Shown here: positions 16,029 through 48,127 of the stretch, in pieces
How the letters are laid out: every line of letters begins with the position of its first letter
Position numbering within the stretch: position 1 is the first letter of the stretch
Position numbers and translations under genes: made by a program
Source: a virus
Taxonomy: Duplodnaviria; Caudoviricetes
IMG/VR virus record: IMGVR_UViG_3300026549_000075
Coordinates: 6,350 to 70,349 of that record
DNA length: 64,000 nucleotides
Strand: one strand, 5' to 3'
The notes under the pieces: model-generated
The model's input: only the letters and a program-made list of their open reading frames with translations
Database searches by the model: none
What the model was told of the DNA's origin: nothing

Positions 16029-16060
16029 TTTACTTTTAGTCTAATATATGGTATATAATA
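16027..16060 (+). promoter_or_regulatory. AGTTTACT-class promoter
   Basis: TTAGTTTACT-N17-TATATAAT. Confidence 0.6.
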
Positions 16061-16065
16061 ATTAT

Positions 16066-16344
16066 ATGGAAAAGCCTGGGTGTGTTCAATTAGCTGAAAT
16101 GCAAATGTTTTCTACTTATATGTTAGATTTAGATGTTATATTACTTGGACTTGATCTTGCTATAGCAGATTTAAGAGGCTATGTTACAGGGTCAAGGTAT
16201 CCAGAGGCAGCAGGAGAAACGAATCAAAAACAAAATATAAATATACCTCCTAAGAAAACACCTTTTGGATCTGATTGGTTTGATGATTATATCTGGGGAT
16301 ATAATGATTGCATAGACGATATTAAAAGAATGAATGGCATGTAA
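16066..16344 (+). CDS. Hypothetical protein; C-terminal GYNDCIDDI motif shared with the 5190 ORF
   Basis: ORF track; likely start at 16066 with no obvious RBS. Confidence 0.6.
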   Translation: MEKPGCVQLAEMQMFSTYMLDLDVILLGLDLAIADLRGYVTGSRYPEAAGETNQKQNINIPPKKTPFGSDWFDDYIWGYNDCIDDIKRMNGM

Positions 16345-16380
16345 ATTTAGTTTACATGCCTTTTATTATGTGATAATATA
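16341..16380 (+). promoter_or_regulatory. Promoter with a GTAAAT-TTA-GTTTAC palindrome over the -35 element
   Basis: The same 15-mer occurs again at 16781. Confidence 0.65.
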
Positions 16381-16408
16381 GTATATGTAAATGAAAGAGG
16401 TAAGAAAA

Positions 16409-16774
16409 ATGTTTAAAATTTCAAGCAAAATTGATAAGATGTATGTAATTAGAGGTGAAAGAAGAGTTTTTGGTAAAAAGGTTTACAAGCATATCCAGTT
16501 TAATCCATGGTCAGGTAATCCTATTATTCAGACAGATATTGCATATAGAGCTCATAATGTTGTTGCTTTTACAAATAAAGATGAAGCTAGAACATTCATG
16601 AAGAATTTCTTCCAGACAAGAATTGAACAGCTTATTGGTGATACTGCTTGGAAAATTGCAGAATATAAGCCAGCTTGCAATGATGATTATATATTAACTT
16701 TTAAAAAAGTTAATACTATTTATGGTTCATGCTACACAATTGAAGACATTAAATATATTAAAAACATTTATTAA
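16409..16774 (+). CDS. Hypothetical protein, paralog of 17035
   Basis: GAGGT RBS; GKKxY..IQFN..NPII.TD..Y.A.N.V.FTNK shared with 17035. Confidence 0.75.
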   Translation: MFKISSKIDKMYVIRGERRVFGKKVYKHIQFNPWSGNPIIQTDIAYRAHNVVAFTNKDEARTFMKNFFQTRIEQLIGDTAWKIAEYKPACNDDYILTFKKVNTIYGSCYTIEDIKYIKNIY

Positions 16775-16780
16775 AGCAGG

Positions 16781-16822
16781 TAAATTTAGTTTACTTGCTT
16801 TTTTGTTTATGATAATATAATA
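16781..16822 (+). promoter_or_regulatory. Promoter with a GTAAAT-TTA-GTTTAC palindrome
   Basis: TTTACT-N17-TAATAT. Confidence 0.65.
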
Positions 16823-16846
16823 ATGTAAAGGAAAGAGGTAAAAGAT

Positions 16847-17023
16847 ATGTGGAGATATGAAGTTAGTTACAGAGACAATGGTATTCTTAAGGGTAAAGGA
16901 TTTGGTTATAGAGATAAGTTTGAGAAGTTCGTTACAAAACTTCTTAAGAATCCATTAAGATATACTGAAGTCAGAGTATTCGATGGAGATATACCTTACA
17001 GCACTTTTGTAGAAATTAGATAG
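16847..17023 (+). CDS. Small hypothetical protein (58 aa, below the track cutoff)
   Basis: GAGGT RBS; MWRYEVSYRDNG... to TAG. Confidence 0.65.
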   Translation: MWRYEVSYRDNGILKGKGFGYRDKFEKFVTKLLKNPLRYTEVRVFDGDIPYSTFVEIR

Positions 17024-17034
17024 GAGAAAGTAAG

Positions 17035-17400
17035 ATGAAATACACAGTCAAGACAGAAGAAACAGGAAACACTTTATACACTTTCAGAAAACCAAGACAG
17101 GTGCATGGAAAGAAATACTACTCCTATATTCAATTCAATACAAGGTCAGTTGAAAAGAATCCTATCATTGTAACTGACTTGCAATATCAAGCATTCAATT
17201 CAGTCTTATTCACAAATAAAAAAGATATGTTCGATTTCAGTATTAAGTTCTTTATGAACAGACATGAAGATTCCTGGCGTGATTGGGAATTCGTGGAATA
17301 TAAACCAGTAAATTCAAAAGAAATTACAAATATTAATGTCAGAAAAGTATATACAAAGTATGGTCCTTGCTATAGAGTTTCATCAATCAACTGGAGGTAA
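17035..17400 (+). CDS. Hypothetical protein, paralog of 16409
   Basis: ORF track; AGGAG RBS. Confidence 0.75.
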   Translation: MKYTVKTEETGNTLYTFRKPRQVHGKKYYSYIQFNTRSVEKNPIIVTDLQYQAFNSVLFTNKKDMFDFSIKFFMNRHEDSWRDWEFVEYKPVNSKEITNINVRKVYTKYGPCYRVSSINWR

Positions 17401-17888
17401 TGAGAATGAGTAAGTGGTATGGAAATTTAATAAATAGATTGGAAGAAGGAAGATCAGTTCCAGATATTAAGCCTGGGACAGACATAACTATGTATTACTG
17501 GTCAGACAGAACTTGCTATTATGTAGTAGATGTAGAAAATCAGAAGAGGATCAAAGTTAGACAGTATCATGTATGTGCAGATCATGATAAACCAGGCGGA
17601 ATGGGTCATCAAAATTGGATGTATTTTAAAACAGCTGATGAAATGAATGACTACTTAAGAAAATATTTCCCTGATACATATAGAGAACATGAAGAAGAAC
17701 CAGAGCCTGAAACTTGGGTATATAGATATAATAAATGGAAGCAGGAAGTTACATATACAAAGGAAAACTACTGCACCGCTAAAGAGTTGAAATCACTAAA
17801 AGAAAAAGGTTATTATAAAAGATACTTTGATTTAAGTGGTAAAATTAGTTTTGGAGTAAGAAGCTACCATTACGACTGGTCGTTTTAA
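17400..17888 (+). CDS. Conserved phage hypothetical protein (WYGNLINRLEE..YYWSDR)
   Basis: ORF track; TAATG overlap; GGAGG RBS. Confidence 0.75.
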   Translation: MRMSKWYGNLINRLEEGRSVPDIKPGTDITMYYWSDRTCYYVVDVENQKRIKVRQYHVCADHDKPGGMGHQNWMYFKTADEMNDYLRKYFPDTYREHEEEPEPETWVYRYNKWKQEVTYTKENYCTAKELKSLKEKGYYKRYFDLSGKISFGVRSYHYDWSF

Positions 17889-17900
17889 TTGGAGGTAAGC

Positions 17901-18185
17901 ATGACAAACGTAGAATATTATGGTGTTAAAAATCTCAAATATGTAAATAAAATGATGCGTCCTGGAATTCAATCTTCAACTGTATATTATATTCCAAGAC
18001 ATGTAAATAAGCCTATTAGGTTGAAAAGATTTGTTGGATCAAGAGATAGAGTATTAAGAAACAAGACTTTATGGCTTCTTGAAACTCCAAAGTTTCCAAT
18101 GAATGATTATGGAGAATATGTTTTCTTAGATATTGATAATTGTTATAGCATTTATAAGATGCGTCATTTTAAAGGAGTTAAATAA
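17901..18185 (+). CDS. Hypothetical protein
   Basis: GGAGGT RBS before the ATG at 17901. Confidence 0.7.
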   Translation: MTNVEYYGVKNLKYVNKMMRPGIQSSTVYYIPRHVNKPIRLKRFVGSRDRVLRNKTLWLLETPKFPMNDYGEYVFLDIDNCYSIYKMRHFKGVK

Positions 18186-18445
18186 TGATAGAGCCTTTTA
18201 GATCTATTTTATGGGCACTTGGTGTATGTACAATAATGCTTTCAAGTGTTATTGTAATTGTATTTCTTGTGTGGGTAGTTAAACTTGAATTTAGTTGGTT
18301 TTTTGGTACAGATATATTTAAATGGTTCCAGAACTTAGGTCGCAAGACTAAAGTTTGGCTTGTAAGAAACTTAATTAAGATTAGAAATAAAACAGATAAA
18401 GCTAATAATAAAAAGCAGATATTACTTGAAGATTTAAAAAATTAG
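18185..18445 (+). CDS. Small membrane protein (single N-terminal TM helix)
   Basis: ILWALGVCTIMLSSVIVIVFLVWVV hydrophobic stretch. Confidence 0.7.
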   Translation: MIEPFRSILWALGVCTIMLSSVIVIVFLVWVVKLEFSWFFGTDIFKWFQNLGRKTKVWLVRNLIKIRNKTDKANNKKQILLEDLKN

Positions 18446-18475
18446 TTTACATGTACATGACATATGATATAATTA
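18443..18475 (+). promoter_or_regulatory. AGTTTACA-class promoter
   Basis: TTAGTTTACA-N16-TATAAT. Confidence 0.6.
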
Positions 18476-18499
18476 AACCATAAATGGAGGTAAGATTAA

Positions 18500-18847
18500 A
18501 TGTTCAACATTAAATTTAAAGATTCTGGTGCTATTATGACTGCTGAGTTCGAGAATTATCTCGATCTTCTGTACTTCGTCGCTGATAAGAAGATTAAGGA
18601 TGAAGATTTTGTTTCAATCAACCTTGGTGATTCTGACATTGAAGGAATTGATGGTCTCTGTGCTTATACCAAAGCAATGGTAACCGAAGTTAAAGCAGCT
18701 CAGAAAGCAGCTGAAGAAGCTATGAATGCTGAATATCAGGAAGAAGATGGTGAAGAATTTGTCTTCGATGATGAAGAGGAAGAAGATGAATTCGATGAAA
18801 TTGAAGAATGATTCAATGAAGTAAATCTTCTTATTAGGAATATTTAA
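18500..18847 (+). CDS. Acidic hypothetical protein; ends at TGA 18811 (code 11) or TAA 18847 (code 4)
   Basis: GGAGGT RBS; D/E-rich tail; the read-through product ends in a TAATG overlap with the next gene. Confidence 0.7.
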
Positions 18848-19191
18848 TGTCCGGAAAGAAAGATAAGATAAAAGACAAGGACAGGTTTTCTGTCCTTGTT
18901 CCTGTTTTAGATAGATGCAGTATATGTGGCTCTACTGATAGAGTTGCTATTCATGAAGTATTTTTTGGTGCTGCTAATAGAAAGAAATCTAAAGAAGATG
19001 GTATGATAGTTCCTCTTTGTTACAATCATCATTTAGGAAATCAAGGAGTTCATACTGTCAAGAAATTAGATCTAATAATTAAGCAGAATGCTGAAAAAGT
19101 GTGGATAGAAAAGTACACTGATAAAAATATATCTTATAATGACAGGATACAACTATTTATAGATAGATATGGAAAGAATTATTTAGATTAA
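18847..19191 (+). CDS. Small HNH-like zinc-finger nuclease
   Basis: CSICG...IHEVFFG..RKKS....IVPLCYNHH pattern. Confidence 0.7.
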   Translation: MSGKKDKIKDKDRFSVLVPVLDRCSICGSTDRVAIHEVFFGAANRKKSKEDGMIVPLCYNHHLGNQGVHTVKKLDLIIKQNAEKVWIEKYTDKNISYNDRIQLFIDRYGKNYLD

Positions 19192-19279
19192 CGCAGGAGA
19201 ATGATTCTAAAAACTAATATAATTATTCATTATATTATGAAACTAATGTCTTGCGTCACTTGTGTAAACGAGGTGATAA

Positions 19280-19651
19280 ATGGTTAAATTTAAAATTAAT
19301 AGACATGAATGGGAAATCGATTTTATGAATGAAGATAATGTAGAAGGAGATGATATTTATCAGACTACATGTGGATTAACTAACTATATTGGTAATACAA
19401 TTGTTATTAATCCAATGATGAATGAATATCAAACAAAAACAACAATCATTCATGAAATTACACATGCGTTTAGATGGTCTTATGGATTTGTAAATGATGT
19501 TGAACCTGTAAAGATAACTGTCGCAGAATTAGATGAGATGATCTCTAACTTTATGGAAAGTTTTGGTGAACAAATTATCGAATTATCTGACAGTTTATTT
19601 AATAGATTAATGAAGGAGAAAAATGGCAACAGAACTTCCAAAAAATCTTAA
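19280..19651 (+). CDS. HExxH metallopeptidase-like protein
   Basis: CGLT...IVIN...TIIHEITHAF. Confidence 0.7.
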   Translation: MVKFKINRHEWEIDFMNEDNVEGDDIYQTTCGLTNYIGNTIVINPMMNEYQTKTTIIHEITHAFRWSYGFVNDVEPVKITVAELDEMISNFMESFGEQIIELSDSLFNRLMKEKNGNRTSKKS

Positions 19652-20666
19652 AGATGTGCTACAAAAAATAAATAAGACATATGGAGCTGGAACTATTCAA
19701 ACATTAGGAGATACTCAGCCTATTAGTCATAATCTTCTTTCGTCTGGTAGCTTATTAATAGATAAGATACTTGGAGGAGGAATTGGCTACGGAAGAATTT
19801 CTGAAATATACGGTGCAGAGTCTTCAGGTAAAACAACTTTATGTTTACAGTTTGCAGCTCAATGCCAGAAAAATGGTGGAAGAGTAGCATATGTAGATGT
19901 TGAAAATGCTCTAGATGTTAATTATGCCAGACATTTAGGAGTAAATACTGATGATTTAATTTTTACACAGCCATCTTCAGGTGAACAAGCGCTTGAAATT
20001 GTTGATGCACTAGCAAAATCTGGTGAAGTAAATCTTATTATTGTTGACTCTGTAGCGGCTCTTACACCTCAAGCAGAATTAGATGGTGAGATGGGAGATC
20101 AGAACATTGGTTTATTAGCTAGACTTATGTCGAAGGCTATGAGAAAACTTACTGGTACATTAAATGAAAAGAATTGTGCAGTAATATTCATTAACCAGAT
20201 TCGTATGAAGATCAATACTGGGTTTATGATGGGAAATCCAGAAACAACAACTGGAGGTAATGCTTTAAAATTTTATGCCTCTCAAAGAATTGAATTAAAG
20301 AAAACTACTTCAATTAAATCTGGTGATGAAGTTATTGGGACTCATGTTAAAGTAAAATGCGTTAAAAATAAAATTGCTACTCCAATGAAAGTATGCGAAG
20401 CTACAATGATTTTTGGAGATGGATTCTCCGCTAAAGGTGAAGCAATTGATTTAGCAGTTGAGTATGGATTTATTGAAAAATCTGGAGCATGGATGACTAC
20501 TCATGATGGTCAGAGATTCCAGGGTTTAAAAAAAGTACAAGAATACTATGAAAATAATACAAATGCGTTGGAAGAATTAACCCAAATGGTTAAAAATAAA
20601 TTGATGGGAATTGAATTAGAACCAGTTTATGAAATTAATGAGGAAACGGGCGAAATTATAGAATAG
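19623..20666 (+). CDS. recA: RecA/UvsX recombinase
   Basis: GRISEIYGAESSGKTT Walker A, IIVDSVAAL, IFINQIR, PETTTGGNALKFYASQR, KSGAW. Confidence 0.96.
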   Translation: MATELPKNLKDVLQKINKTYGAGTIQTLGDTQPISHNLLSSGSLLIDKILGGGIGYGRISEIYGAESSGKTTLCLQFAAQCQKNGGRVAYVDVENALDVNYARHLGVNTDDLIFTQPSSGEQALEIVDALAKSGEVNLIIVDSVAALTPQAELDGEMGDQNIGLLARLMSKAMRKLTGTLNEKNCAVIFINQIRMKINTGFMMGNPETTTGGNALKFYASQRIELKKTTSIKSGDEVIGTHVKVKCVKNKIATPMKVCEATMIFGDGFSAKGEAIDLAVEYGFIEKSGAWMTTHDGQRFQGLKKVQEYYENNTNALEELTQMVKNKLMGIELEPVYEINEETGEIIE

Positions 20667-20676
20667 GAAGACAGAT

Positions 20677-20883
20677 ATGAATTTACAAAAGGTAGACAGT
20701 TCAAATATAGATAGGATAGGTTATCAAGATAGAAAGTTAATTGTAGAATATAAATCTGGATTAATGTATGCTTATAATGATGTTCCAGAACATGTTTGGA
20801 ATGAATTTAAAATAGCAGAATCAAAAGGTAGATTTATGAATTCTGAAATCAAAAATAAGTACTTATTTAAGAGACTTAATTAG
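20677..20883 (+). CDS. KTSC-domain protein
   Basis: VDSSNIDRIGY..LIVEYKSG..YAYNDVP..AESKGRFMNSEIKNKY. Confidence 0.85.
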   Translation: MNLQKVDSSNIDRIGYQDRKLIVEYKSGLMYAYNDVPEHVWNEFKIAESKGRFMNSEIKNKYLFKRLN

Positions 20884-21092: not shown

Positions 21093-24000
21093 ATGACATA
21101 TAAAGAATTGTTTAATGATTTAAAAGACTTCTCTGAAAATTTTACATTGTCAGAAGGAGTTTATAGAGTAGTAGATAAATCTGATGTTGAAGTTGCTTCT
21201 AGCATTTTAAAACATTATTATCTAGATGTTAATGAAAAGAATCTAGATTATCAGAATAATTCTCCAGATGGAATTAATTATTTGATAAGATTTAGTAAAC
21301 CAATTGAGGATAACAGGATGAATGAAGATTTAATCACTAAAAGAGATTTAGAAGCTGCTAGGTTGATACTTAAACATGACACTGATCCTAGACATATTAA
21401 GAAGGCTCAAGATGTTATTAAAAAGTATAAAGAACAAAATAAAGCTGATGTAGATGAAGCAATTGAAAAACATGATACTCTTAATCCTAAACTTTGGGAT
21501 GAAAACAATGAATTAAAACCTGAAGTTAGAAAAAAGATTGAAGAGATTGTACAGAAGTTTGATGATAACCTTAAAGAAAATGATGTAGAATTGAATGTTA
21601 AGGATATCGCAATTATTGGAAGTAATGCAAATTACAATTACTCTCCTGATTCAGATGTTGATATTCATATTATAGCTGATACTTCAGTTTATCCTGATCA
21701 AAAAGATTTAGCAATGAAGGTTTATTTAGCATATAAATCTTTATTTAATAATAAATATGATCCTACTTTAAATGGTGTTGAAGCTGAGATTTATGTAGAA
21801 CCAGACGAAGTTCATGCAAATTCTAATGGAGTATATTCACTTAAAGATGGTTGGTTAAAAGAACCTGAGCAAGTGGATGTTCCTGATATTGATCCTGAAC
21901 ATGTACAAGAATTAATTCAACCATTTGAAGATAGATATAATGAGTTAATTAATTCTGATCCTTCTGTAAGTGATGTTGATAAATTAATTGATGATATTTA
22001 TTTGCAGAGGCAGCAGTCTATTTTAAAAGATGGGGAATTTGGCGATGGTAACATTTGTTTTAAAGAATTTAGAAACAGAGGTTATTTGCAGAATTTAAGA
22101 GATTTAAAGGTTGAGTTGGAGAATAAAGAGATGAGTTTAAATGATATGAATGAGCAATTCTTATATTTAAATAATCTAAATGAAGATTGTGAAGAAATTA
22201 ATGAGCAATTAGTTTCAGATGATTTATTTGTTGGTGCAGAATTTGTTGAGCCAGATACAGGTTCTAGAATTGTAATAACAAGTATTGAAGATGATTTAGT
22301 AACATATGATGAGACTCTTGATGGAGGTGAATCAGTTACTATTACTGATCCTATTAGTTATTTCGTTTCAACACTTAATGAATATGATTATGTTTTAGAT
22401 GAGAATTGTAAAAAAGATCTTAAGGAAGAAGTTTTTGAAAATGAAAATGGTATGGAAATCAGTTTCCCTGATCCTCGTGATACATTAGCAGTATTCCTTG
22501 AGTGGGAAGGTATAATTGGCTATACTGATGAAATTTATGATGTTGCTCAAGAAGGTTATGACGCGTTAGATGAATTCCTTGAATATGAAGGTATTCTTGG
22601 ATACACAAGTAAGATTTATGAAATCGTAAATACAGGATCTGCTTGGTGCAGTCAGATGGAAATGGAAGACTTCCTTTCTGTTTGTAAATCATTGTATCTT
22701 GATTATACATTAGCTATTGATGATGACGATATAGATGAAAAGTTAGAAGAGTCTGGTGATCTTTATCTTGGTTCAAAGTGGAATAATAAATATGATAGGG
22801 ATAGATATTTTAGAACAGTTCCTAAATATAGAATAAAGGATAAACGTACTAATAAATCATTTACAGCTCAGTGTGGCAACTGGGATTCAATAGATGATGT
22901 TAAGAAAGAATATCCTGAAGATAAGTACGAAGTTAAGTTAGTTGAAGCTACAAAAGTTGGATTAGTATCTGCAGCAAAAAGTGCATTAAATAAATATTGC
23001 GATAAATTAAAAGATGCTTCAGCTGAAGAAATTTATGATAGAGCTTTAAAACATGCAAGTAGATCAGAATATCCATTTGTTAAGGATAATTTAATTGCTA
23101 AAAAAGATATTGCTATTGATTATATTAATAAACGTAAAGAAGCAATGTCTACTGATGATTTAGATGAAGATTTTGTAATAGATGATAAACCAGGTACAAA
23201 GTATAGAAATAAAAATGGTATCATCCTTAAGATGGAAGAACCTACTGAAGATGGTGAAATTCAGTTTGCTATTATAGATAATGGTGAAATAATTGATCAT
23301 CGTAAAATGTCTGATTTAAAATCATTTGCTAGAATGGTTGATGCTAATGGTTATGAAAAATTAACTGAAGACACTATTAAACAAGGTGATAAATGAGTTA
23401 ATAAGGGTAAAGAAGGAACACACGGAAAGTTTAAGACCAAAAAGGATGCAGATGATCAACGTAAAGCGATGTTCGCTAATGGATACCACGAATCATTAGA
23501 TGAAGGTACAGCATTTGATGGAATGCCTGGTTATATGACTCCTGAAGAAATTAGAGCAAAGAAACTTGCTGATAAGGAGAAGTTAGATGCTGAAAAAGAG
23601 CAAGTTAAAGCTCAGAAGGCTGCTGAAAGAAAAGAAAAAGCAAAAGCTGAAAGAGCAAGACAGAAAAGAATTGATCAAAGAGCGAAGGTTAACAGTTTAA
23701 GCTATGATTCATTAGCTGATATGGCAGGTCTTCCTGAAGATAATAATGATTTAACAAAAGATGAGTTATTAGCAGTACTCCGTGCTAGTATGAGTGATGA
23801 AGAGATTCTTAAGTTACATAAAAAGATGTTCGAAAGTTTAAATGAATCTCATAAAGGATATGATTTAATTTTTGATAGAGATACTGGTGATCGTCAAGTT
23901 GAGTATGGAATTAATTGGATTCAGTTCACAACAGATAATTATGATGATGCTGTTAGATGGGCTAGACAGTTAGATGCTGCCATGGCTGGTGATATTGATG

Positions 24001-24701
24001 AGTATGGTGAACCATCTGATGATTCTAAATATTATGATCCTGAGAATTATCCTAAAGATATTCAAGAAGTTGGAGATGGAAAATTTAACTTCAGAAGAAG
24101 AAGAGATATTTTAGATAGCATTGAAAAGGTTGATTTTGTAGATGCTGATGATATTCATGATCTTGATGAAGCTATTGATGATTCAGATGCCGCAGGAAAG
24201 GCTTTAGCAAATTATTTAGATATTCCATTAGAAGATTTAGATTATGTCGGAGATGACATCTACGAAACTCAGGACACATCTTACATTGTGTGTGATGAGG
24301 ATGAAGCTTATAAAAAAGCTGTAGATGAAATTAAGATGTTAGTAGATGACATGGGCCTTGATGCTTTTACTCCTCATTTTAAAGATTGGATTATAGATAA
24401 TGCAATTGATGAAGATGCAATTGATGATATCATTGAACAGGAAATCGAGTACTTTGAAGATGATGAAGATAATCCAGATATGTTAACTTATCTTAGAGGA
24501 TTAAATACTTTAGATGATAAAGTTAATTATATAAAAGATTTATATGGTGATTCATTAGCAATTTGGGCAAAGGATTATATCGATGTAGATAAAGTTGCTG
24601 AAGAAGCAATTAAAGAAGATGGAGTTGCTCATTTCATTGCTCAATATGATGGAGAAGAAGTAGATTTAGGCAATAATTTATTTGCTTATAGAATATATTA
24701 G
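21093..24701 (+). CDS. 1202-aa acidic multidomain protein with a Pol-beta-type nucleotidyltransferase domain (1 TGA=W)
   Basis: HDTLNPKLW..IAIIGSNANYNYSPDSDVDIHII (GS..DxD). The TGA at 23394 sits in DK-W-VNKGKEGTHGKFKTKKDADDQRKAM and joins in frame to the 23469 ORF. Confidence 0.75.
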
Positions 24702-24709
24702 GAGATCTC

Positions 24710-25762
24710 ATGGAAAGACTTTTAGAGTATAACAGAAAAGATTTAAGGAACTGAGCAGGTGAAGAATTAGCTGCAAAGTTCTTTGAAACAAGATCTAAGT
24801 ATCCAGCTCCATATAACAACTTAGATTATTGGATTAATAATGGTACACCTGAAGAGTTATCTACATATATGAATAACTATAAATCCAATAATCAAAAGAG
24901 AAAAGAAGTTGTAGTTGAAGGTGCGGAAAAGATCTACGATGATGGAAGATGAACAGTAGTTCTTTGTAAGACTTATCCAGCTATGGCATTATATGGTAAA
25001 GGAACTAGATGATGTATAGCAGGAAATTATCCAGGTCATGAAGGTAGAGGCCAAGAATATTTTGATAGCTATAAACAAAGCAGATATACTAATTATTATG
25101 TATATATTGATAAGGAAGCACCAGAAGGAAACAATAAATGGTGTGTATGTCCATTAAAGTCCAATCCACTTGATGAATGTGATATTTGGAATGCACCTGA
25201 TAGAACTGTTCCGTGTATTCCTAATGCACCTACACTTCCTAACATGCCTCCAGTCTCCAATATTGTTATTTTAGATAATGTTTTACTTAAGTTAAAGCAA
25301 GCTGATGATAATAGTACAGTATTCAATGTTCCAGAAGGTGTTGAAGCAATAGGAAGAAAAGCATTTGTTGATTTAAGAAATTTAGATGAAGTTAAGATTC
25401 CTAATAGTGTTAAGTCTATTGGTTCTGGTGCATTTGCTTCTTCTTCAATAAAAACAGCTGTTATTCCTGATAGTGTTACACAAATTGGAACTGCATTATT
25501 TGGTTTATGTGAAATATTAAAAACTGTATCTCTTGGAACAGGCATAACATCAATTAATAAAAATATGTTTGCATTCTGCTCAGGTTTAGATTCAGTTATA
25601 GTAAATGGTATTATTGAAAATATTGGACAAACGCCATTTGATGGTGTAAATAAAAATTGCACATTCTATGTACGTAATCCATATAGAAATAGAAAATTAG
25701 TTGATTATTTAAATGATCAAGGATTCACTGTTGTAGATGCAAGTACCAGTGAAGTTATTTAG
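24710..25762 (+). CDS. 350-aa protein: YGKGTRWCI domain + BspA-type leucine-rich repeats (3 TGA=W)
   Basis: AGGAG RBS; VPEGVEAIGRKAF/IPNSVKSIGSGAF/IPDSVTQIGTALF repeats. Confidence 0.75.
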
Positions 25763-25774
25763 AGAGGTTAGATA

Positions 25775-27990: not shown

Positions 27991-28001
27991 TGCTAAATTT
28001 A
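27991..28001 (+). promoter_or_regulatory. TGCTAAATTTA putative late promoter
   Basis: 36 nt upstream of the ATG at 28027. Confidence 0.65.
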
Positions 28002-28026
28002 GTATAATAAATGTGAGGAATTTAAT

Positions 28027-29882: not shown

Positions 29883-29892
29883 GGAGAAGCAT

Positions 29893-34961: not shown

Positions 34962-34974
34962 TAGGTAATATAAT

Positions 34975-40455: not shown

Positions 40456-40465
40456 GGAGATTTAA

Positions 40466-41398
40466 ATGGCAACATATAATCAAAGTCAAATGACACTCCC
40501 TTCAGGAGATGTAGTAAAATTTATAGATAATACAAGTGGTTACACCAAAAATACAGGTACTATCACCGGAGTTACTGCTGGTACAGGACTTTCCGGTGGT
40601 GGTACCTCTGGTGCTGTCACTTTAAATCATAGCAACAGTGTAACTGCTCAGAATACACAGGCTGTCTATCCTATTAAAATAGATGCTCAAGGACATATCA
40701 GTGCATATGGTAGTGCTGTTACAATTCCATCAGCAGTTACTGAATCAACTGTAAGTGGTTGAGGATTTACTAAAAATACAGGTACAATAACAGGCGTAAC
40801 AGGAAGTAATGGTCTTACAGGTTCAGGAACTTCTGGATCAGTTACTATTTCACATGCTGCTCCTTCAACATCTCCTGCAAAAACAACATCTGCAGTATAT
40901 CCTATTACAATAGATAAGTATGGACATATATTGACTGCAGGATCAGCAGTTACAATTCCTGCTGCTGTAGCAGTTAAAGGTAATGCTGAAACATCATATA
41001 GAACAGGAAATGTTAACTTAACACCTGCTAATATCGGTGCTGCTACAAGTGATCATACTCATACAACTTCATTAGCAACATCGACAGGTACAAGTACTAT
41101 AACATTGGCGCACGGCAGTAAGTATCAATTAACTGCTGGTGGTACTAGTGTTATATTTACTATGCCAGCAGATTCAAATACAGATACTAAGGTAACAAAT
41201 ACATTAGCAACTACAACAAAGTATTATGTTACAGGTACAACTTCATCAAGTACGAATACAGGAACACAATCATTTGACTCTGGAATCTATTCAACAACAA
41301 CAGCAGGTCAATTAAATGCTACAACTTATCTTGTTAATGAAAAGGTAAGATTAGAATATAATTCAACAACAAAAAGTTTAGATTTCATATTTGTTTAG
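40466..41398 (+). CDS. Tail fibre-related protein, 310 aa (1 TGA=W)
   Basis: Two copies of GTITGVT.S.GL.G.GTSG.VT..H...YPI.ID..GHI, also present in the 34975 protein. Confidence 0.75.
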
Positions 41399-41411
41399 GA
41401 GGTAGTTAGAT

Positions 41412-43706
41412 ATGGCATTGAGAGTTTGATTGCCTCTTAATGGATCAGTTGAAAATAAAGGAATTAGCAATACTACAATGTCAGGAAGTCCTGCTTCTTG
41501 AGGTAATGGTAAGATAGGTAAGTGTGCAACGTTTACAGGTAATGTAGGTAATGTAATTTATAATAATACAACTGATTATAATTATACTGATAAATTTAGT
41601 TGAGCAGTATGAATTAATACTAATTTTACAGGTACAACTTCCCAATTCGCTTTTACAAATGGTAGAGCTGATGCTGGTGGATACGGTTATGGTTTACAAT
41701 GTTCAAATGCTACAACGTGTAATATTAGATTTGGAAGTCAAAGTTTTGGAGTTGCTGTAACTGGTGGTGAGTGAACTCATTTAGCATTTACTAAAAGTGG
41801 AACGTCTATAAAAGTTTATAAAAATGGTTCTATTGTAACTGATACTACATTTTCAGGAACTTTACCTACATATAGTGATGGTAATGGATTAGGTTTAGGA
41901 TGTTTTCATTATTCAGGAAATATTTATCCATTTTATGGTTCATTAAATGATTTTAGAATATATGATCACTGCTTATCTCCAAAAGAAGTTAAAGAGATTT
42001 CGCAAGGCTTGGTACTTCATTATAAATTAGACGGATGGAGCGGTGGCGCTGGGGAGAATTTATTAAGTAAATATGTTACTCCAGGTCAACAAAATCCAGG
42101 GGCAACTTCTAGTGCCGGAAGAACTAATTATTATGGAGATTATGGAATTATAATTCCAGCAACTGAAAACGCAGATACTTATTTTAGATTATTTACTAAT
42201 ACACAATTACAGCAAAACGCTCAATACACAATTAGTTGTGAAGCTTCAGGTTTATCTTCTGGAACATATTATAATTTTCCACTGTATGCTCAAAATAATA
42301 CTTCAATGGGTGTTTTAAGAATAGACCATAATGGTATATGTTCTTTAACTTTTACTATGACTTATGCTACTCAGACAGCTATGACAGTTGATGGTAAAAC
42401 AGTTTATTTATGTTTTATGGATGATTCAGCAAGAACATTGGCAAGTGGTCAAGGAGCAATTACTATTAAAAATTTTAAAATAGAAAAAGGCTCAAAAGCA
42501 ACACAATGATCACCTGCTCCACAGGATTTAGGCATAGATACTACAAAAATAACTGATTCATCTGGTTATGGAAATGATGGTACGATAATAGGAACCTTAA
42601 GTACTGAAAGTGATTCTGATAGGTATGAAATAAGTACTCATTATCCAGGTTCATCTTACACTGACACTGGATCTGGAACATTTAATTGATTTGATTTTTC
42701 TCAATGTACATTATCAGCTTGAATAAAACCAACTGCTTCAGTTTCTGGTTGAAGTGGATCAATAGGTGTTCAACATAATCAAAATGCAGGCCATAAAGGA
42801 TTTACAATAACAGATTATGCTAATAATTTTAGAGTAGTTACTGTTAATGGTTCTTATACTACAATAGATTCAGGAAAACAACTTACAGTTGGTGAATGAC
42901 ATCATTGTGCTGCAGTACTAAATGGTACTAATTTAAAAATGTACTATGATGGCGCTATGGTGAAGGAATCAACAGTATCATGAGGATCTGCTGCTATAGC
43001 TACTGACATGAGATTTGCAACTGGGGTTGATTTTCCAGGAAGTGATGAAATGTTTACTGGAAATTATTCTGATATAAGAATGTATTGTACAGCTCTTTCT
43101 GCTGAAGATATTTTAGATTTATATCATACTTCAGCTAATATAGATGATCTATATAATATTCATTCTTTTGAGTATAATGAAATTTTTACATCAAATTTAT
43201 ATGATTTTTCTGCTCCGTGGACTTATGAAAATTTAACTGGCTCTACTGTTGATACAGATATGGGGCAGGCAATAAAGTTAGTTACATCAAGTACAAATCA
43301 AAGAGCATACAAGAATGTTAGTAATATATGAACAACTAGTGGTAAACAATTTGTAGTTTCTTTTATCGCAAAATCAGATATTGAAGGAATTACTTGTGAT
43401 ATGTCAAGATCAATAGCTGATTTTACAGATAAATTTACTCTTTCAACTAAATGAAAGAGATACACTGGTACAATAACTGTTACGTCTACAAGTACAGGTG
43501 GAACACTTAGTTTTAGAATAAATCAGTCTGGAGCAACTGTATATATACTCGGCGTAAAGTTGGAGGAAGCTAATAAGAATTTAATATCAGCTACAAAACA
43601 AGGTGAGCTTTTAGAAAATAATATAGATGAAATTGAGTATTTAACAATAAGTAAATTTAAGAAAGAATCAAGTAATATTATTGCTAAAGATTTTATAGAG
43701 AAGTAA
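41412..43706 (+). CDS. LamG/concanavalin-A-like receptor-binding tail protein, 764 aa (13 TGA=W)
   Basis: RV-W-LPLNG; GE-W-THLAFT..IKVYKNG..GSLNDFRIYDHCLS; second LamG domain W-HHCAAVLNG..YYDG..YSDIRMYCTALS. Confidence 0.8.
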
Positions 43707-43723: not shown

Positions 43724-44677
43724 ATGGCTCAATTAAAAGACAGTCTCGTAACTGGAGATTTACGAGTTACAGGTAAAATATATGGAACTGCTACTAATTC
43801 AGATAAGGTTAACAATCTTACTGTTTTAACTGCGGTTCCAGCAAATGCAAAATTTACTGATACTACTTACTCTTCTAAAACCGCTGCTTCAGGAGGTACT
43901 GAAGTATCACTTGTTACTACAGGTGAAAAATACACTTGAAATAATAAGTCTAATTTAGCAATTGGTACAACGGCTTCAACTGCTGCTGCTGGTAATCATA
44001 CTCATTCATTATCAATAGCAACAAGTACTGGCACTAGTGCTATAACATTAGAAGCAAGTAAAAAATATCAACTTACAGCTGGTGGATCAACTTATATATT
44101 TACGACTCCACCTAATACTACATATTCAAGTAAAACAGCAGCCAGTGGCGGTACAGATGTTTCTCTTGTAACAACTGGAGAGAAGTACACTTGAAATAGT
44201 AAAACATCAAACACTGGTACAGTAACATCTATAACAGTTAAAACAACATCTCCAATTTCAGGCGGAAGTGATACAGCTGTAACAGGCACAGGTACATGAA
44301 CAATATCACATGCTAATTCAGGAGTTACTGCTGGTACTTATGGTAGTGCTACAGCAGTTCCTAAAATTACAGTAGATGCTACAGGTCATGTAACTAGTGT
44401 TACAGATACAACTATTACAGCTTCAGCTGCTACAAAGTATACAACATGTACATTACCTGTGTTTACTAAAGCTGGATCAAAAGCTGTTACAGTATCAGGT
44501 GTTACAGCAAACAGTCACCCTGTATTGGATGTTTATATATCATCTGCAGAAAATGTAGTTGATTGTACAGAATCATGATCACATATTTATAGAGCTGATA
44601 CTGCAGCGAATAAAATTACATTTTATAGTGATGCAGCTACTTCAACACAATTAACTGTTATGGTAAAGGATTATTAA
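43724..44677 (+). CDS. Tail fibre-like protein, 317 aa (4 TGA=W)
   Basis: MAQLKDSLVTGDLRVTGKIYG; duplicated TTYSSKTAASGGT.VSLVTTGEKYT-W-N unit. Confidence 0.75.
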
Positions 44678-44694
44678 TTTAATCCTTTTTTTAT
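44666..44694 (+). terminator. Probable terminator
   Basis: AAGGATTA..TAATCCTT followed by TTTTT. Confidence 0.5.
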
Positions 44695-44704
44695 ATATTA
44701 TTAT

Positions 44705-45337
44705 ATGAAGATATGTATAGGTATCATTAGCTATTTTCCAGATGATGATAAAAGAGAAATCAGAATCGAGAGAGCAAAGAAAGTCATAGAAGACTGCAAT
44801 AAACTTTTTGATTTGCCAATTATAATAGTAGCTCAAAACTGAAAAGGTTTAATGTTATATGATGATAATTTGCATATTCATAGATATGATAAACTTGGTA
44901 TAACAGGCGCCAGAAAAGAATTACGTAAACTATTTTTAGATTCTGATTATGATTATATGATTATGCTTGATGATGATGCGAAATTAGTTGGTACTAAAGA
45001 TGACGCAAGAGAATACCTGAGGACGATAGAGAATCATCCTGGAGCTAGATATGGAATATATAAGACTTATCTTTTAAAGCTTTTCGCGATCTCTAAAGAG
45101 ATGTTTAAGGAAATAGATTATCCTGATGGTGAAGCTTCTAATGGTGACTTTTTTGAAGATATGTATTTAATAATGGCCCTTGAAAAGAAGTGACCATCTA
45201 GAAAATTTTTATTTGCAAGAAAGACACTTAATGATACTTCAGATTCAGCACATGATCCTGATTCTACATGATATCATGAGCAGTTTAATAAGCATAAGAT
45301 TGGTGACAGAACAAGAGCAATGATAAAGGAGCTGTAG
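44705..45337 (+). CDS. GT-A-like glycosyltransferase (paralog A), 210 aa (3 TGA=W)
   Basis: LGITGARKELR..SDYDYMIMLDDD..FED. Confidence 0.7.
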
Positions 45338-45922
45338 ATGATAAAGGTAAGTATATTAATACCCGCATATAACCAGCAGGAATTAATTGTTAGATGTCTT
45401 GACTCTATACCTGATAGGGATGATGTTGAAGTTATTGTAACAGATGATGGAAGTACTGATGATACATTAAGGGTAATAAGTAGTTATGATAGATTAAAAA
45501 ATCTTAAAATATTTTCAACAGTTAATCATGGTGTTCCAGGCCCAGCTACAAATATATGCATAGATAATTCATCAGGTGAATACATAATGTATGTCGATGA
45601 TGATGATTATATTTATACTGATGTATTTATAGATATATTAGACAATATAAGTAAGTATAATTATTATGATATTATAAAGACTCTTCAAGAGAAAAATAAT
45701 GGTGAAAAGTGAATATCTAAATGAACTTATAGAGGGTGTTTAATAAAGAGATCTTTTCTTGGTGATTTACGGCATAATAATAGCGAAAGTCATGATACAG
45801 CTATCATGAGAGAGTTAGAAAAGAAAAACCCGAAAATAATTGTTTTTGATAAAAGTGCATTATATCATTACAATTATCCTAGGGAAGGAAGCATTATGTG
45901 AAATAGAGGATTTAGAGGTTAA
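45338..45922 (+). CDS. GT2 glycosyltransferase (paralog B), 194 aa (3 TGA=W)
   Basis: VSILIPAYN..VIVTDDGSTD..YIMYVDDDD..YHYNYPREGS. Confidence 0.85.
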
Positions 45923-45929
45923 TTTAGTT

Positions 45930-46844
45930 ATGTATGACAATGTAGACTTGGTTGTAACTTGAATGCAACCCACAAAAAGAGAAATTGAAACACGTAATAA
46001 GCAGAGAGCTATTGAAACTGGTGCAGAGCCGGCAGCATTTGAAGAAATAAGATACAGAGATTGAGATGTATTTAATTATTGATTTAGAAGCATGGAGAAA
46101 TTTGTGCCATGATTTAATAAAATATTTTTAGTGATAGGTCATGAAGATCAAATTCCATTATGATTAAATACTAATCATTCAAAATTAAGGATAATTTATC
46201 AAGATGACATTATACCAAAAGAATTAGTACCTACTTATAATGGTGCTCTTATAGAAATGTTTTTGAGTAATATAGAAGAATTATCTGAACATTTTATTTA
46301 TTTTTGTGATGATTATCTTTTTATTAAACATTTAGATAAAGAGTTTTTTGTAAAAAATAATCTTCCAAATGTAGGTGGCAATATTGTTGAAAATAAACCA
46401 TTGCCTCCAATTGACATGTATTATAACATGTTAAATAATAATTTAAAGTTTGAAAATAAAATTTTTCCTAAGTTAGATCATTGATATACACAGCCGCATT
46501 TTCCTACTGTGCATAGCAAATCATTTGAACAAGAAATCATAAATAAATATTATGATGATATAGTAAATCATTTTAAAATGAGTCGTTTTAAGAATAAAGG
46601 AAATTTACTTAATTCACTTTTTAATGATTTAATAAAATTAATGAATAGATGCAATTACGTTCCTGATATGTATAATGTTGCTGAATTTAGACACTTAAGG
46701 GATAATTGTAATTTTAATTTTAAGGATAAAACAAGTATCATTTGTATTAATGATCAAGTATGTAATGACTTTAAAGGGTTACAAAAAAGATTAAAACAAT
46801 ATTTAAATAGTGTTATGCCGGAGAAATGTTCATTTGAGTTATAA
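45930..46844 (+). CDS. Stealth-family sugar-1-phosphate transferase, 304 aa (6 TGA=W)
   Basis: DLVVT-W (CR1); RYRD-W..FRSMEKFVP-W-FNKIFLV..QIPL-W-LN..LVPTYNGALIE..IEELSEHFIYFCDD (CR2). Confidence 0.8.
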
Positions 46845-47457
46845 ATTAAGTATAATTATACCAGTATACAATCAGGAAGAATTAGTTATAAGATGTTTGA
46901 ATTCAATTCCTAAAAGAAAAGATATAGAACTAATTATTACTGATGATTGTAGTACAGATAAATCAAAGGAAAATATAATTGATTGAATTAATACAAATCA
47001 ATATTTTGGTGTTATACATTTTAAGTTGAATGATACTAATATGGGTGTTGGATATACTAAAAGTAAAATGTATGACATGGCTACAGGTGAATACATAACA
47101 ACAATAGATAGTGATGATTATGTTCTTACTGATAATTATTCTAAAATAATTGATGAATTATATAAGAATCATAAAGATAATGAAATACTTATTTTAGATC
47201 ATGAAGATAATAAAGGTAACATAACTAGATCAAATTCATGTAATGCAACATGAAGATATTTTATAAAGTTAAAGTATTTAAGAGATAATAATTTAAAAAT
47301 TAATCCTGTTTATAGGAGAGCTGAGGATTGATTTTTAATGAGGGAAGTTGAGAAGTTTAAGCCAAAATTTACAAGACTTGGTATATTAGCGTATCATTAT
47401 AATTATCCACGAGAGGGAAGTTTAAGTTGAAATTGAGATCATTATAAGAAGGTGTAG
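46834..47457 (+). CDS. GT2 glycosyltransferase (paralog B'), 207 aa, TTG start (5 TGA=W)
   Basis: LSIIIPVYNQEELVIRCLNSIP..IITDDCSTD..TTIDSDDY..YHYNYPREGS. Confidence 0.85.
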
Positions 47458-47458
47458 T

Positions 47459-48127
47459 ATGAAAATTTGTATAGGAATTATAAGTTACTTTCCTGATGAT
47501 GAAAAAAGGAGAGTAAGAATTGATAGATTTAGATCTTTACTTAGTCAACTTAATAGTCATTTTAAACTTCCTATAATTATTGTTGCACAAAATTGAAAAG
47601 ATTTTAGAGTTGAAGAAGGTAATGTTGCAATATTTAGTTATAATAAGCTTGGAATAACTAGAGCAAGATCAACTCTTAGAAAACATTTTATCAATTCAAC
47701 TTACGATTACATGATAATGCTAGACGATGATATGGAGTTATCTGATAATCAAGTAGATTATGACTTATACTTAAGAGCAATAGAATCAAATAAAAAAGAA
47801 TATTATTATGTTCGTAATTATTTAAATAATTTCAGCTGTATTTCAAAATATGGAATTCAAAAAGTAGATTATGATTTATCTATTGATCCAGAACAAGGCA
47901 CTGGATTTGAAGATTGAATATTTCACACAAAATGTAAAAAAGTATTAGACAGTATGGAATTAGATACTGCACTTCCAGCTCATGATAGAACTTATTTTTT
48001 AAATGATCAGTTCTCAACATGAAATACTGGTAATGAGAAACTATCTAAATCAAATAATGCAGTGTCACTTGGAATAATAAGAAAGTTAAGAGGAAATGAC
48101 TTTGATTCAGGTAGAAATTGATTTTAA
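47459..48127 (+). CDS. GT-A-like glycosyltransferase (paralog A'), 222 aa (4 TGA=W)
   Basis: MKICIGIISYFPDD..IVAQN-W-K..KLGITRAR..YDYMIMLDDD..FED. Confidence 0.7.

What the first reader, a model, noticed from the sequence alone, without database searches (positions are those of the whole stretch)
16048..48127. TGA use is switch-like: absent from early genes, exclusive in glycosylation and endonuclease genes
Hand counts. The block 16048-20883, behind sigma70-like promoters, has 25 Trp codons, all TGG. The two permeases (5) and topA (2) are also all TGG. By contrast the five glycosyl genes use 21 TGA and 0 TGG, the two free-standing endonucleases 19 TGA and 0 TGG, and the LamG gene 13 TGA and 2 TGG. 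The major capsid, protease/scaffold, 28027 and 62077 genes again use only TGG. Inference: the host reads code 11, the phage switches code mid-infection, TGA gates late or toxic functions, and the most abundant head proteins avoid an inefficiently decoded codon. Exceptions: the 5190 and 5468 ORFs each carry one TGA behind an early-type promoter.
Basis: partly seen in the sequence, partly recalled or inferred. Interest (0 to 1): 0.8.

Follow-up and report, generated by a model that had tools for sequence, protein, structure and literature searches.

The report
Recoded rumen phage: uneven TGA-tryptophan use
This cattle-gut phage reads the stop codon TGA as tryptophan, keeps it out of its early genes and its most abundant head proteins, and lets it take over low-copy late genes; the pattern is real but has already been published for related gut phages.

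Summary
The contig has 121 TGA and 133 TGG. Their spread over genes is far from random (X2 150 on 61 df, permutation p<5e-5). Third-position A/G content does not explain it (r=0.08).

TGA means Trp. At orthologous sites in 14 related contigs it aligns with TGA (83), TGG (64), TAT (14) and TTT (13).

Two promoter classes separate the genes. Genes behind the sigma70-like class hold 7 TGA and 54 TGG. Genes behind the strand-specific motif TGCTAAATTTA hold 88 and 37 (Fisher 7e-15). Relatives G001 and G002 repeat this.

The pattern is graded, not a switch. Many large genes are mixed. The TGA-only genes sit near the neutral expectation of 0.81-0.89, so selection for a TGA gate is not shown. What is shown is selection against TGA in early genes and in the capsid and protease genes.

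A 96-nt tRNA(UCA) lies 1.7 kb upstream of the window, behind early-type promoters. Its extra arm looks like a Trp anticodon loop.

Host evidence is indirect and points to Erysipelotrichaceae, which have RF2 and use the standard code.

This matches Borges et al. (TGA-recoded 'Agate' phages). The scan has already noted both the pattern and the tRNA on other DNA.

The parts
610..3254 (+). Two xanthine/uracil-family permease genes, downstream of the early-type promoter found 350 bases upstream of the window start; 0 TGA, 5 TGG
   Evidence: Pfam PF00860, E 8e-49 and 5e-44; tally; promoter scan
7702..8645 (+). Late motif TGCTAAATTTA (7702-7712) and homing endonuclease gene 7731-8645; 8 TGA, 0 TGG. 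It sits between early-class genes
   Evidence: PHROG 655 homing endonuclease, E 1e-16; motif; tally
8697..10523 (+). Topoisomerase I gene; 0 TGA, 2 TGG
   Evidence: Pfam Topoisom_bac E 6e-105, Toprim, Zn ribbon; tally
10563..11567 (+). GIY-YIG homing endonuclease gene; 11 TGA, 0 TGG
   Evidence: Pfam SegE_GIY-YIG, GIY-YIG, NUMOD-like; tally
12234..16028 (+). 1264-aa DUF6267/cytidylyltransferase-like gene with mixed use: 3 TGA, 10 TGG. Promoter class unassigned
16028..20883 (+). Early block of 12 small genes plus RecA (19623-20666), behind GTTTAC-N17-TG-TATAAT promoters at 16028, 16350, 16789 and 18445; 25 TGG and 1 TGA (codon 104 of ORF 18500-18847)
   Evidence: promoter scan; tally; RecA Pfam E 2e-106; G001 orthologs have 0 TGA
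21093..27919 (+). Three large genes (nucleotidyltransferase-domain, 1202 aa; BspA-type LRR; 714 aa) with mixed use: 7 TGA, 23 TGG. The upstream gap holds GTTTAC boxes and a TATAAATA-like box, so the class is ambiguous
27991..43706 (+). Late motif at 27991, then the late tail/fibre operon. The first gene, 28027-29550, has 0 TGA and 3 TGG. Genes 29550-43706 have 33 TGA and 14 TGG, including the LamG gene 41412-43706 with 13 and 2
   Evidence: motif; tallies; PHROG tail hits and Pfam Laminin_G_3
43724..48127 (+).
   Evidence: Pfam Glycos_transf_2, Stealth_CR2; tally; the TGA codons are kept as TGA in G001 orthologs
48128..55312 (+). Late motif at 48128 and packaging genes: terminase with intein and HNH (49668-52925; 10 TGA, 5 TGG) and T4-type portal (52935-54824; 1 and 2). 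Genes 48544-55312 together: 14 TGA, 9 TGG
   Evidence: Pfam Intein_splicing, HNH_3, Portal_T4
55333..59199 (+). Late motif at 55333, prohead protease/scaffold gene 55371-57785 (0 TGA, 2 TGG), a second late motif inside it at 56993, and the major capsid gene 57787-59199 (0 TGA, 4 TGG; GC3 0.32 against about 0.15 elsewhere). A terminator-like hairpin follows
   Evidence: Pfam Peptidase_S77, Gp23; motifs; the hairpin with T run is read directly from the gap sequence; MCP orthologs have 3 TGA and 51 TGG
59252..59853 (+). Early-type promoter inside the late region and gene 59299-59853; 0 TGA, 2 TGG
60274..63885 (+). Late motifs at 60274, 60507 and 62032. Genes 60522-61283 (2 TGA, 2 TGG), head-tail adaptor-like 61283-61993 (3 and 1), and the acidic zinc-ribbon protein 62077-63885 (0 and 2)

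Best explanation
The window is most of a 70-kb fragment of a large T4-like phage from the cattle and goat gut. The phage reads TGA as tryptophan while infecting a host that most likely reads TGA as stop.

The phage carries its own UGA-reading tRNA. The gene lies 1.7 kb upstream of the window, downstream of host-type (sigma70-like) promoters, so it is probably made from the start of infection.

Genes translated before enough of this tRNA has built up cannot tolerate TGA. These are the genes behind GTTTAC-N17-TATAAT promoters, and they keep TGG. Genes behind the phage's own late promoter motif TGCTAAATTTA are translated after the change and can use TGA.

In this AT-rich genome mutation pushes TGG towards TGA; other A/G third positions are 83% A. 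Low-copy late genes, such as the glycosyltransferases, fibre genes and homing endonucleases, therefore drift to all or nearly all TGA. Proteins made in bulk, such as the capsid protein and the protease/scaffold, keep TGG, because reading a stop codon in competition with release factor 2 is slower or leakier.

The pattern is thus a graded depletion of TGA, set by timing and by expression level. It is not an on/off gate.

Shown here: the code, the tRNA, the two promoter motifs, the correlation, and its conservation in relatives. Inferred: the timing of the two promoter classes, the host's code, and the cost of TGA decoding.
For: TGA = Trp. In 14 related contigs, G000 TGA codons align with TGA 83, TGG 64, TAT 14 and TTT 13. 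That is the same spectrum as for TGG codons. ORF cover rises from 0.72 under code 11 to 0.90 under code 4.

Suppressor tRNA. A tRNA with anticodon UCA lies at L003:4611-4706. Five further distinct family members were found in four other viral contigs and relative G002. Across the six, 93% of cells are paired and 16 pairs carry compensatory changes. Early-type promoters lie at L003 3872 and 4108, with no terminator-like site before the tRNA.

Promoters. There are 12 GTTTAC-N17-extended -10 sites, 11 of them intergenic. The motif TGCTAAATTTA occurs 9 times exactly on the coding strand and never on the other, against 0.1 expected. Eight of the nine lie 14-45 nt upstream of a start codon. The motif is kept in G001 (8 copies), G002 (4) and G004 (2).

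Correlation with promoter class. Early-class genes have 7 TGA and 54 TGG, late-class genes 88 and 37 (Fisher 6.6e-15), with equal A3 of 0.82 and 0.84. An automatic nearest-promoter rule repeats this in G001 (p=2.5e-7) and G002 (p=3.7e-6).

Depletion rather than enrichment. Against each group's own A3: early block p=4e-17, MCP plus protease p=1e-4, endonucleases p=0.26, glycosyl genes p=0.009.

Conservation. MCP orthologs have 3 TGA and 51 TGG. Terminase orthologs have 32 and 35, and the two genes at 60522-61993 have 26 and 27.

Host. The nearest RecA relatives are Erysipelotrichaceae MAGs. All five genomes checked have prfA and prfB, and the RecA loci are dense under code 11.

Published model. 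Borges et al. describe the same model.
Against: The host is not identified. RecA identity is only 52-55%. A phage contig in a genome bin is weak evidence. No CRISPR spacer was found.

Seven TGA codons sit in genes assigned to the early class. Five of them lie upstream of the window.

Several genes directly behind late motifs are TGA-free and several are TGA-rich, so timing alone does not explain the pattern.

The class of 12234-16028 and 21093-27919 (10 TGA, 33 TGG) is unassigned.

No timing data exist. 'Early' and 'late' rest on promoter resemblance and on gene function.

The base after TGA shows no bias of the kind expected if release factor competition shaped codon context.
Confidence: 0.72

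Rival explanations
1. Adaptive gate (the first reader's reading; also proposed by Borges et al. for lysis genes and an intron endonuclease). TGA is positively selected in homing endonuclease and glycosylation genes so that these proteins cannot be made before the code change.
For: There are 44 TGA among 44 Trp codons in these genes. The six glycosyl-block genes exceed their own A3 expectation slightly (p=0.009). Endonuclease 7731 has its own late motif although it sits among early genes. In G002, which is TGA-poor overall (18% TGA), a GIY-YIG gene has 3 TGA and 0 TGG, and the ortholog of 7731 has 2 and 1. Borges et al. report the same enrichment.
Against: All-TGA is close to what mutation pressure alone gives (A3 0.81-0.89), and the endonucleases do not differ from it (p=0.26). 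The glycosyl genes lie at the far end of a 20-kb late operon along which TGA rises smoothly (r=0.51), which fits relaxed selection with falling expression. Nothing suggests that glycosyltransferases are toxic early. A late promoter already delays these genes.
Confidence: 0.2
2. Import. The TGA-only genes are recent arrivals from more heavily recoded phages or from code-4 organisms, and the TGG-only genes are the old core.
For: Homing endonucleases are mobile. The 46-48 kb stretch is the most AT-rich in the window (GC 0.25). A short GT2 stretch shows 73-74% DNA identity to several Erysipelotrichaceae genomes.
Against: The glycosyl genes have orthologs in G001 at 67-93% identity with TGA at the same sites, so they are not recent. 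In TGA-poor G002 their homologs are mixed (1/1 and 2/2), which fits drift inside the lineage. The bacterial GT2 homologs are only 34-38% identical at protein level and have L or Y, not W, at the one aligned TGA site. Import would not explain why early genes and the capsid gene resist a strong mutation bias.
Confidence: 0.06
3. The host itself uses code 4, and the uneven TGA use reflects ordinary codon bias.
For: Low GC (31%). The nearest cultured phage relatives infect Bacillota, the wider group that contains the Mycoplasma lineage.
Against: In a code-4 host TGA would be neutral in early genes, yet the early block has 1 of 26 against 0.81 expected (p=4e-17), and this holds in G001. The phage carries its own UGA reader. 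The candidate host family has prfB and is dense under code 11.
Confidence: 0.05
4. Local base composition alone explains the TGA/TGG ratio.
For: The genome is AT-rich, and the TGA-rich block is the most AT-rich part.
Against: Gene-level A3 does not predict TGA use (r=0.08, p=0.19). Heterogeneity is unchanged after fitting it (X2 150, against a simulated mean of 62 and maximum of 98).
Confidence: 0.01

Closest known systems
TGA-recoded 'Agate' and other gemstone-clade gut phages (Borges et al., bioRxiv 10.1101/2021.08.26.457843; published in Nat Microbiol 2022, from my own knowledge)
   Same: A large phage of the animal gut with TGA read as Trp and a phage-borne tRNA(UCA). TGA is present in structural genes and absent from replication and early genes. 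A homing endonuclease next to early genes is strongly TGA-biased. The host is predicted to use the standard code. The model is a code change part-way through infection.
   Different: Clade membership was not tested; no terminase tree was built. Additions here: two explicit promoter motifs that sort the genes, a rising TGA share along one late operon, TGG kept in capsid and protease genes across relatives, and an all-TGA glycosylation block. No RF1 or TrpRS 'code-change module' was found, unlike in the Jade phages.
crAss-like and Lak phages with TAG or TGA reassigned in late genes (named in the Borges et al. preprint and among the titles listed; primary papers not read here)
   Same: Block-wise use of a reassigned stop codon in late genes, together with a suppressor tRNA.
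   Different: Those are mostly TAG to Gln in Bacteroidota phages of a different virion lineage. This phage has a T4-type head (gp20, gp21, gp23).
Code 4 of Mycoplasma and Spiroplasma
   Same: UGA is read as Trp by a tRNA with anticodon UCA, in an AT-rich genome where TGA outnumbers TGG.
   Different: There the whole cell is recoded and RF2 is lost, so TGA is neutral in every gene. Here TGA is strongly avoided in a defined gene set. The tRNA is a 96-nt molecule with an extra arm, not a normal 75-nt tRNA-Trp.
T4 early and late transcription programme (host sigma70 promoters, then late promoter TATAAATA; own knowledge)
   Same: Two promoter classes. One is host-like with -35 and -10 boxes. The other is a single short AT-rich box about 15-45 nt upstream of late gene starts.
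   Different: The late box here is TGCTAAATTTA. No gp55/gp33-like factors were looked for, and timing has not been measured.

Membership tests
Stop-codon-recoded (TGA to Trp) phage of a standard-code host | In-frame TGA in conserved genes at positions where relatives have Trp | tested here: met
   TGA aligns with TGA 83, TGG 64, TAT 14 and TTT 13 in 14 related contigs
Stop-codon-recoded (TGA to Trp) phage of a standard-code host | Coding density restored when TGA is read through | tested here: met
   ORF cover is 0.72 under code 11, 0.90 under code 4 and 0.76 under code 15; total ORF length
Stop-codon-recoded (TGA to Trp) phage of a standard-code host | Phage-encoded suppressor tRNA with anticodon UCA | tested here: met
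   L003:4611-4706, found by ARAGORN; covariation across six members
Stop-codon-recoded (TGA to Trp) phage of a standard-code host | Recoded codon concentrated in late and structural genes and spared in early genes | tested here: met
   Early class 7 TGA and 54 TGG, late class 88 and 37, Fisher 6.6e-15; repeated in G001 and G002
Stop-codon-recoded (TGA to Trp) phage of a standard-code host | Host uses the standard code (has RF2, no UGA-reading tRNA-Trp) | tested here: inconclusive
   The host is not identified. The candidate family Erysipelotrichaceae has prfA and prfB and is dense under code 11. No spacer match was found in the 401-genome samples drawn for two 20-kb queries
Stop-codon-recoded (TGA to Trp) phage of a standard-code host | Decoding of TGA changes during infection | not testable with these tools
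   Needs a time course in a cultured host
'Agate' clade of Borges et al. | Placement in the clade on a terminase tree or by ANI | not tested
Habitat, TGA code and genome size (relative G002 is 140 kb at an estimated 83% completeness) are compatible
T4-like head module | gp20 portal, gp21-type prohead protease and gp23 capsid protein, in that order | tested here: met
   Pfam Portal_T4 E 2e-44, Peptidase_S77 E 2e-6, Gp23 E 1e-28
tRNA-Sec (Rfam RF01852) | Score over the gathering threshold, and an 8/5 acceptor/T-stem geometry | tested here: not met
   40.1 bits against a threshold of 47. The stems are 7 and 5 pairs. TGA sites behave as Trp, not Sec, Cys or Ser

The most novel reading that the evidence does not exclude
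The code change may depend on an unusual 'two-headed' tRNA. The 96-nt tRNA(UCA) upstream of the window has a normal decoding arm (loop CUUCAAA). It also has a conserved 7-8-pair extra arm whose loop always contains UCCA. That loop resembles the anticodon loop CUCCAAA of ordinary tRNA-Trp.

A differently built tRNA(UCA) in relative G003 and in nine other viral contigs carries an extra arm with loop CUUCCAAAA on covarying stems.

The extra arm could be the handle by which the host's unmodified TrpRS, which normally reads the CCA anticodon, still charges the suppressor with Trp.

If that is so, TGA density per gene would act as a quantitative throttle set by the supply of this one tRNA. The scan has noted this tRNA type before on other phage DNA. 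I reached it independently before looking those notes up.
Probability: 0.4. Interest if true: 0.75.

Novelty: new member of a known kind. Interest (0 to 1): 0.3.

Why it matters
The window gives a clean, countable example of a phage that runs two genetic codes in one infection. It adds some detail to the published picture. Explicit early and late promoter motifs sort the genes. The composition control shows that the signal is avoidance of TGA in early and bulk-protein genes, not enrichment elsewhere. The capsid gene keeps its TGG across relatives. For annotation, the window must be called under code 4, or about a fifth of its coding sequence is lost. The more interesting lead is the suppressor tRNA with a second, Trp-like anticodon loop, which could explain how a phage recodes a standard-code cell without bringing its own synthetase.

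Tried and rejected
- **CRISPR host link.** Two 20-kb pieces of the window (24001-44000 and 44001-64000) were each compared with a 401-genome sample of the Erysipelotrichaceae-labelled family. The short matches (27-38 nt, 91-100% identical) are not flanked by repeats, so no spacer was found. This is a sample, not proof of absence.
- **Code-change proteins.** No RF1 domain (PF00472) or class-Ib synthetase domain (PF00579) was found in G000-G004. All of these are incomplete genomes.
- **Context of TGA.** The base after TGA does not differ from the base after TGG (p=0.51 in G000; p=0.19 pooled over 627 TGA).
- **Terminase intein.** TGA and TGG are mixed in both extein and intein, so there is no mobile-element partition inside this gene.
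- **RNA editing of TGA.** Contigs of two RNA libraries from one sample lie on the TGA-rich stretches 41000-44142, 44767-45578 and 49428-53514 with no differing letters, so there is no sign of editing. These are contigs and may include DNA carry-over. Their depths are high over the capsid gene and low over the glycosyl block, while a DNA run is flat. By the tool's own rules these depths cannot be used to rank expression, and I do not count them as evidence.
- **Identity of 28027-29550 and 62077-63885.** No Pfam, PHROG or PDB sequence match was found. The second is an acidic protein with an N-terminal zinc ribbon. Whether these are abundant virion proteins stays open.
- **The tRNA as selenocysteine tRNA.** Rejected; see the membership test.
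They lie in a stretch dense with tRNA and other RNA genes. They may not be genes.

Full report
**What the window is.** The window is bases 6350-70349 of a 70,349-base IMG/VR virus contig estimated to be about 35% complete. All credible genes lie on the + strand. Pfam finds a T4-type head module:
- portal 52935-54824;
- prohead protease 55371-57785;
- gp23-type capsid protein 57787-59199;
- a terminase-position gene with an intein and HNH domain, 49668-52925.

Pfam also finds RecA, topoisomerase I, two nucleobase permeases, GT2 and Stealth glycosyl genes, and a LamG protein. PHROGs adds homing endonuclease and tail hits. The nearest cultured capsid relatives are Bacillus, Listeria and Streptococcus myoviruses at 26-30% identity. 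Near-identical DNA occurs in cattle and goat gut runs from many studies.

**Checking the counts.** I called ORFs under code 4 and counted TGA and TGG per gene. One in-frame TGA in the 'all-TGG' block was missed: codon 104 of 115 in ORF 18500-18847. It may be that early gene's true stop or a Trp, and the G001 ortholog diverges there.

The contig holds 121 TGA and 133 TGG. The heterogeneity among genes is X2 150 on 61 df, and no shuffle out of 20,000 came above 100.

The share of A among A/G-ending codons of other amino acids, gene by gene, does not predict TGA use (r=0.08, p=0.19), and fitting it leaves the heterogeneity unchanged.

**What TGA means.** I compared all proteins with 14 related viral contigs. 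The TGA codons of this phage align with TGA 83 times, TGG 64, TAT 14 and TTT 13. TGG codons show the same spectrum (TGG 167, TGA 26, TAT 18). TGA is therefore Trp, not Gly, Ser, Cys or Sec. Relatives differ in how far recoding has gone: G001 has 49% TGA, G002 18%, and G003 and G004 about 29% each.

**The decoder.** ARAGORN finds a 96-nt tRNA with anticodon UCA at bases 4611-4706 of the contig, 1.7 kb upstream of the window. Rfam's tRNA-Sec model scores it at 40.1 bits, under the threshold of 47, and the general tRNA model misses it at gathering level.

Pattern scans of viral contigs and a covariance model gave six distinct members of this family. Across them, 93% of cells are paired and 16 of 30 pairs carry compensatory changes, and no shuffle or slid register came near. 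Shared features:
- a 7-pair acceptor stem and a 5-pair T stem;
- discriminator G in all six, and A1-U72 in four of six;
- a long D stem with a tiny loop;
- anticodon loop CUUCAAA;
- an extra 7-8-pair arm whose loop always holds UCCA.

Relative G003 has a differently built 99-nt tRNA(UCA). Its D arm resembles that of the phage's ordinary tRNA-Trp(CCA), and its extra arm has loop CUUCCAAAA. Nine more contigs carry such tRNAs, with different, complementary stems. The ordinary tRNA-Trp anticodon loop in these phages is CUCCAAA.

No paper in the searched library describes this. Earlier notes of this scan do, on other genomes.

The tRNA gene lies downstream of two early-type promoters with no terminator-like site between them, and a late motif follows it. 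No RF1 or TrpRS gene is present in the five largest fragments.

**Two promoter classes.** The intergenic gaps show two recurring boxes.
- The first is GTTTAC, about 17 bases, then TG-n-TATAAT or a close variant. There are 12 sites, 11 of them intergenic, each 20-60 nt before a gene or a tRNA array.
- The second is TGCTAAATTTA. It occurs nine times exactly on the coding strand and never on the other, with 0.1 expected. Eight of the nine lie 14-45 nt before a start codon, and one lies inside the protease gene, 794 nt before the capsid gene. It is kept on the coding strand of G001 (8), G002 (4) and G004 (2).

The gene content behind the two boxes fits early and late classes. Small unknown genes, RecA and the permeases lie behind the first. 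Tail, packaging and head genes lie behind the second. The timing itself is inferred.

**TGA by class.** Genes assigned by hand give 7 TGA and 54 TGG for the early class and 88 and 37 for the late class (Fisher 6.6e-15). Background A3 is 0.82 and 0.84. Unassigned genes have 26 and 42. An automatic nearest-promoter rule gives the same direction in G000, G001 (p=2.5e-7) and G002 (p=3.7e-6). The result is not significant in G004.

Against each group's own A3:

| Group | TGA / TGG | p |
|---|---|---|
| Early block | 1 / 25 | 4e-17 |
| Permeases, topA, RecA | 0 / 8 | 2e-7 |
| Protease and capsid | 0 / 6 | 1e-4 |
| Unassigned large genes | 10 / 33 | 1.5e-18 |
| Tail and fibre genes | 33 / 14 | 0.012 (mildly depleted) |
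| Packaging genes | 14 / 9 | 0.011 (mildly depleted) |
| Endonucleases | 19 / 0 | 0.26 |
| Glycosyl block | 25 / 0 | 0.009 |

The strong, repeatable signal is thus removal of TGA from some genes. The all-TGA genes are roughly where mutation pressure would leave them. Along the late operon from 27991 to 48127 the TGA share climbs with distance from the promoter (r=0.51, p=3e-6).

**Conservation.** Across relatives the capsid orthologs hold 3 TGA and 51 TGG. At this phage's four capsid Trp sites, relatives have TGG 50 times and never TGA. Terminase orthologs hold 32 and 35, and the two genes after the capsid operon hold 26 and 27. The capsid gene also has a distinct codon usage (GC3 0.32; A share of Lys/Glu/Gln codons 0.42 against about 0.7). 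That fits selection for efficient translation. The early block of G001 has no TGA.

**Host.** A scan of one genome per species with the phage RecA returned only Erysipelotrichaceae and other Bacillota MAGs from ruminant and other guts, at 52-55% identity. Their RecA loci are already densely coding under code 11. All five genomes tested have both prfA and prfB. One bin of that family holds a 21-kb contig of a related TGA-recoded phage, syntenic from terminase to capsid and the adaptor-like gene, with ORF cover of 0.74 under code 11 and 0.95 under code 4. This is suggestive, not proof. Two spacer hunts found nothing. The strongest argument for a standard-code host remains internal: a code-4 host gives no reason for early genes to resist an 83% A bias.

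**What is known.** Borges et al. surveyed recoded gut phages. For TGA-recoded 'Agate' phages of cattle, pig and tortoise guts they describe:
- suppressor tRNAs, detected in only 35% of code-4 genomes, with the remark that non-canonical tRNAs may escape detection;
- a homing endonuclease next to early genes among the three most TGA-biased families;
- the model of a switch from the standard to the alternative code during infection.

Earlier notes of this scan report the same capsid avoidance and early/late split in other recoded phages. I treat those notes as leads only; the tests above were done here.

**Verdict.** The words 'switch-like' and 'gates toxic functions' go beyond the data. The pattern is graded, and the TGA-only genes do not clearly exceed neutral expectation. 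This is a new member of a known kind. The most interesting item is the two-armed suppressor tRNA just outside the window.

Noticed in passing
L003:4611-4706 (contig bases 4611-4706, 1.7 kb upstream of window base 1): A 96-nt tRNA(UCA) with a Sec-like long D stem and a 7-pair extra arm. The loop of that arm (UUCCAAC) resembles a tRNA-Trp anticodon loop. Six family members covary, and a second architecture with loop CUUCCAAAA occurs in G003 and nine other viral contigs.
   Followed up: partly
L003:4415-4612: A GC-richer, ORF-free leader of about 190 nt directly upstream of the tRNA(UCA). It folds better than all 200 shuffles (z = -2.9) and has no Rfam match.
   Followed up: partly
window 3476-3548 and 4048-4133: Two more tRNA genes that Rfam finds and ARAGORN misses. 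One is tRNA-Thr(CGU) with C at position 33. The other is a long-arm tRNA-Ser(UGA) with three mismatched acceptor pairs. With these the contig carries 11 tRNA genes, nearly all for A- or U-ending codons.
   Followed up: no
window 56993-57003: An exact copy of the late motif TGCTAAATTTA inside the protease/scaffold gene, 794 nt before the capsid gene start. It may be an extra promoter for the capsid gene.
   Followed up: no
window 49668-52925: The terminase-position gene carries an intein with an HNH endonuclease (residues about 591-999). In G001 and G002 the orthologs are about 660-670 aa, so they appear to lack the intein.
   Followed up: partly
window 8646-8720: The topoisomerase I frame opens with TTG at 8697 and its Toprim match starts at profile position 8, so the true start is unclear.
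   Followed up: no
window 20884-21092: A 209-nt gap with three GTTTAC/GTAAAC boxes arranged as inverted repeats, long AT-rich runs, and a TATAAATA-like box before the 1202-aa gene. It may be a regulatory hub or a third (middle) promoter type.
   Followed up: no
L190 (G326:C32:1-20000): A 21-kb contig binned with an Erysipelotrichaceae-family MAG is a related TGA-recoded phage fragment. It is syntenic from terminase to capsid and the adaptor-like gene at 36-47% identity.
   Followed up: partly
G002 (L031:7366-7541): In relative G002 the long-arm tRNA(UCA) sits 7 nt upstream of an ordinary tRNA-Trp(CCA). This genome uses TGA for only 18% of its Trp codons.
   Followed up: partly
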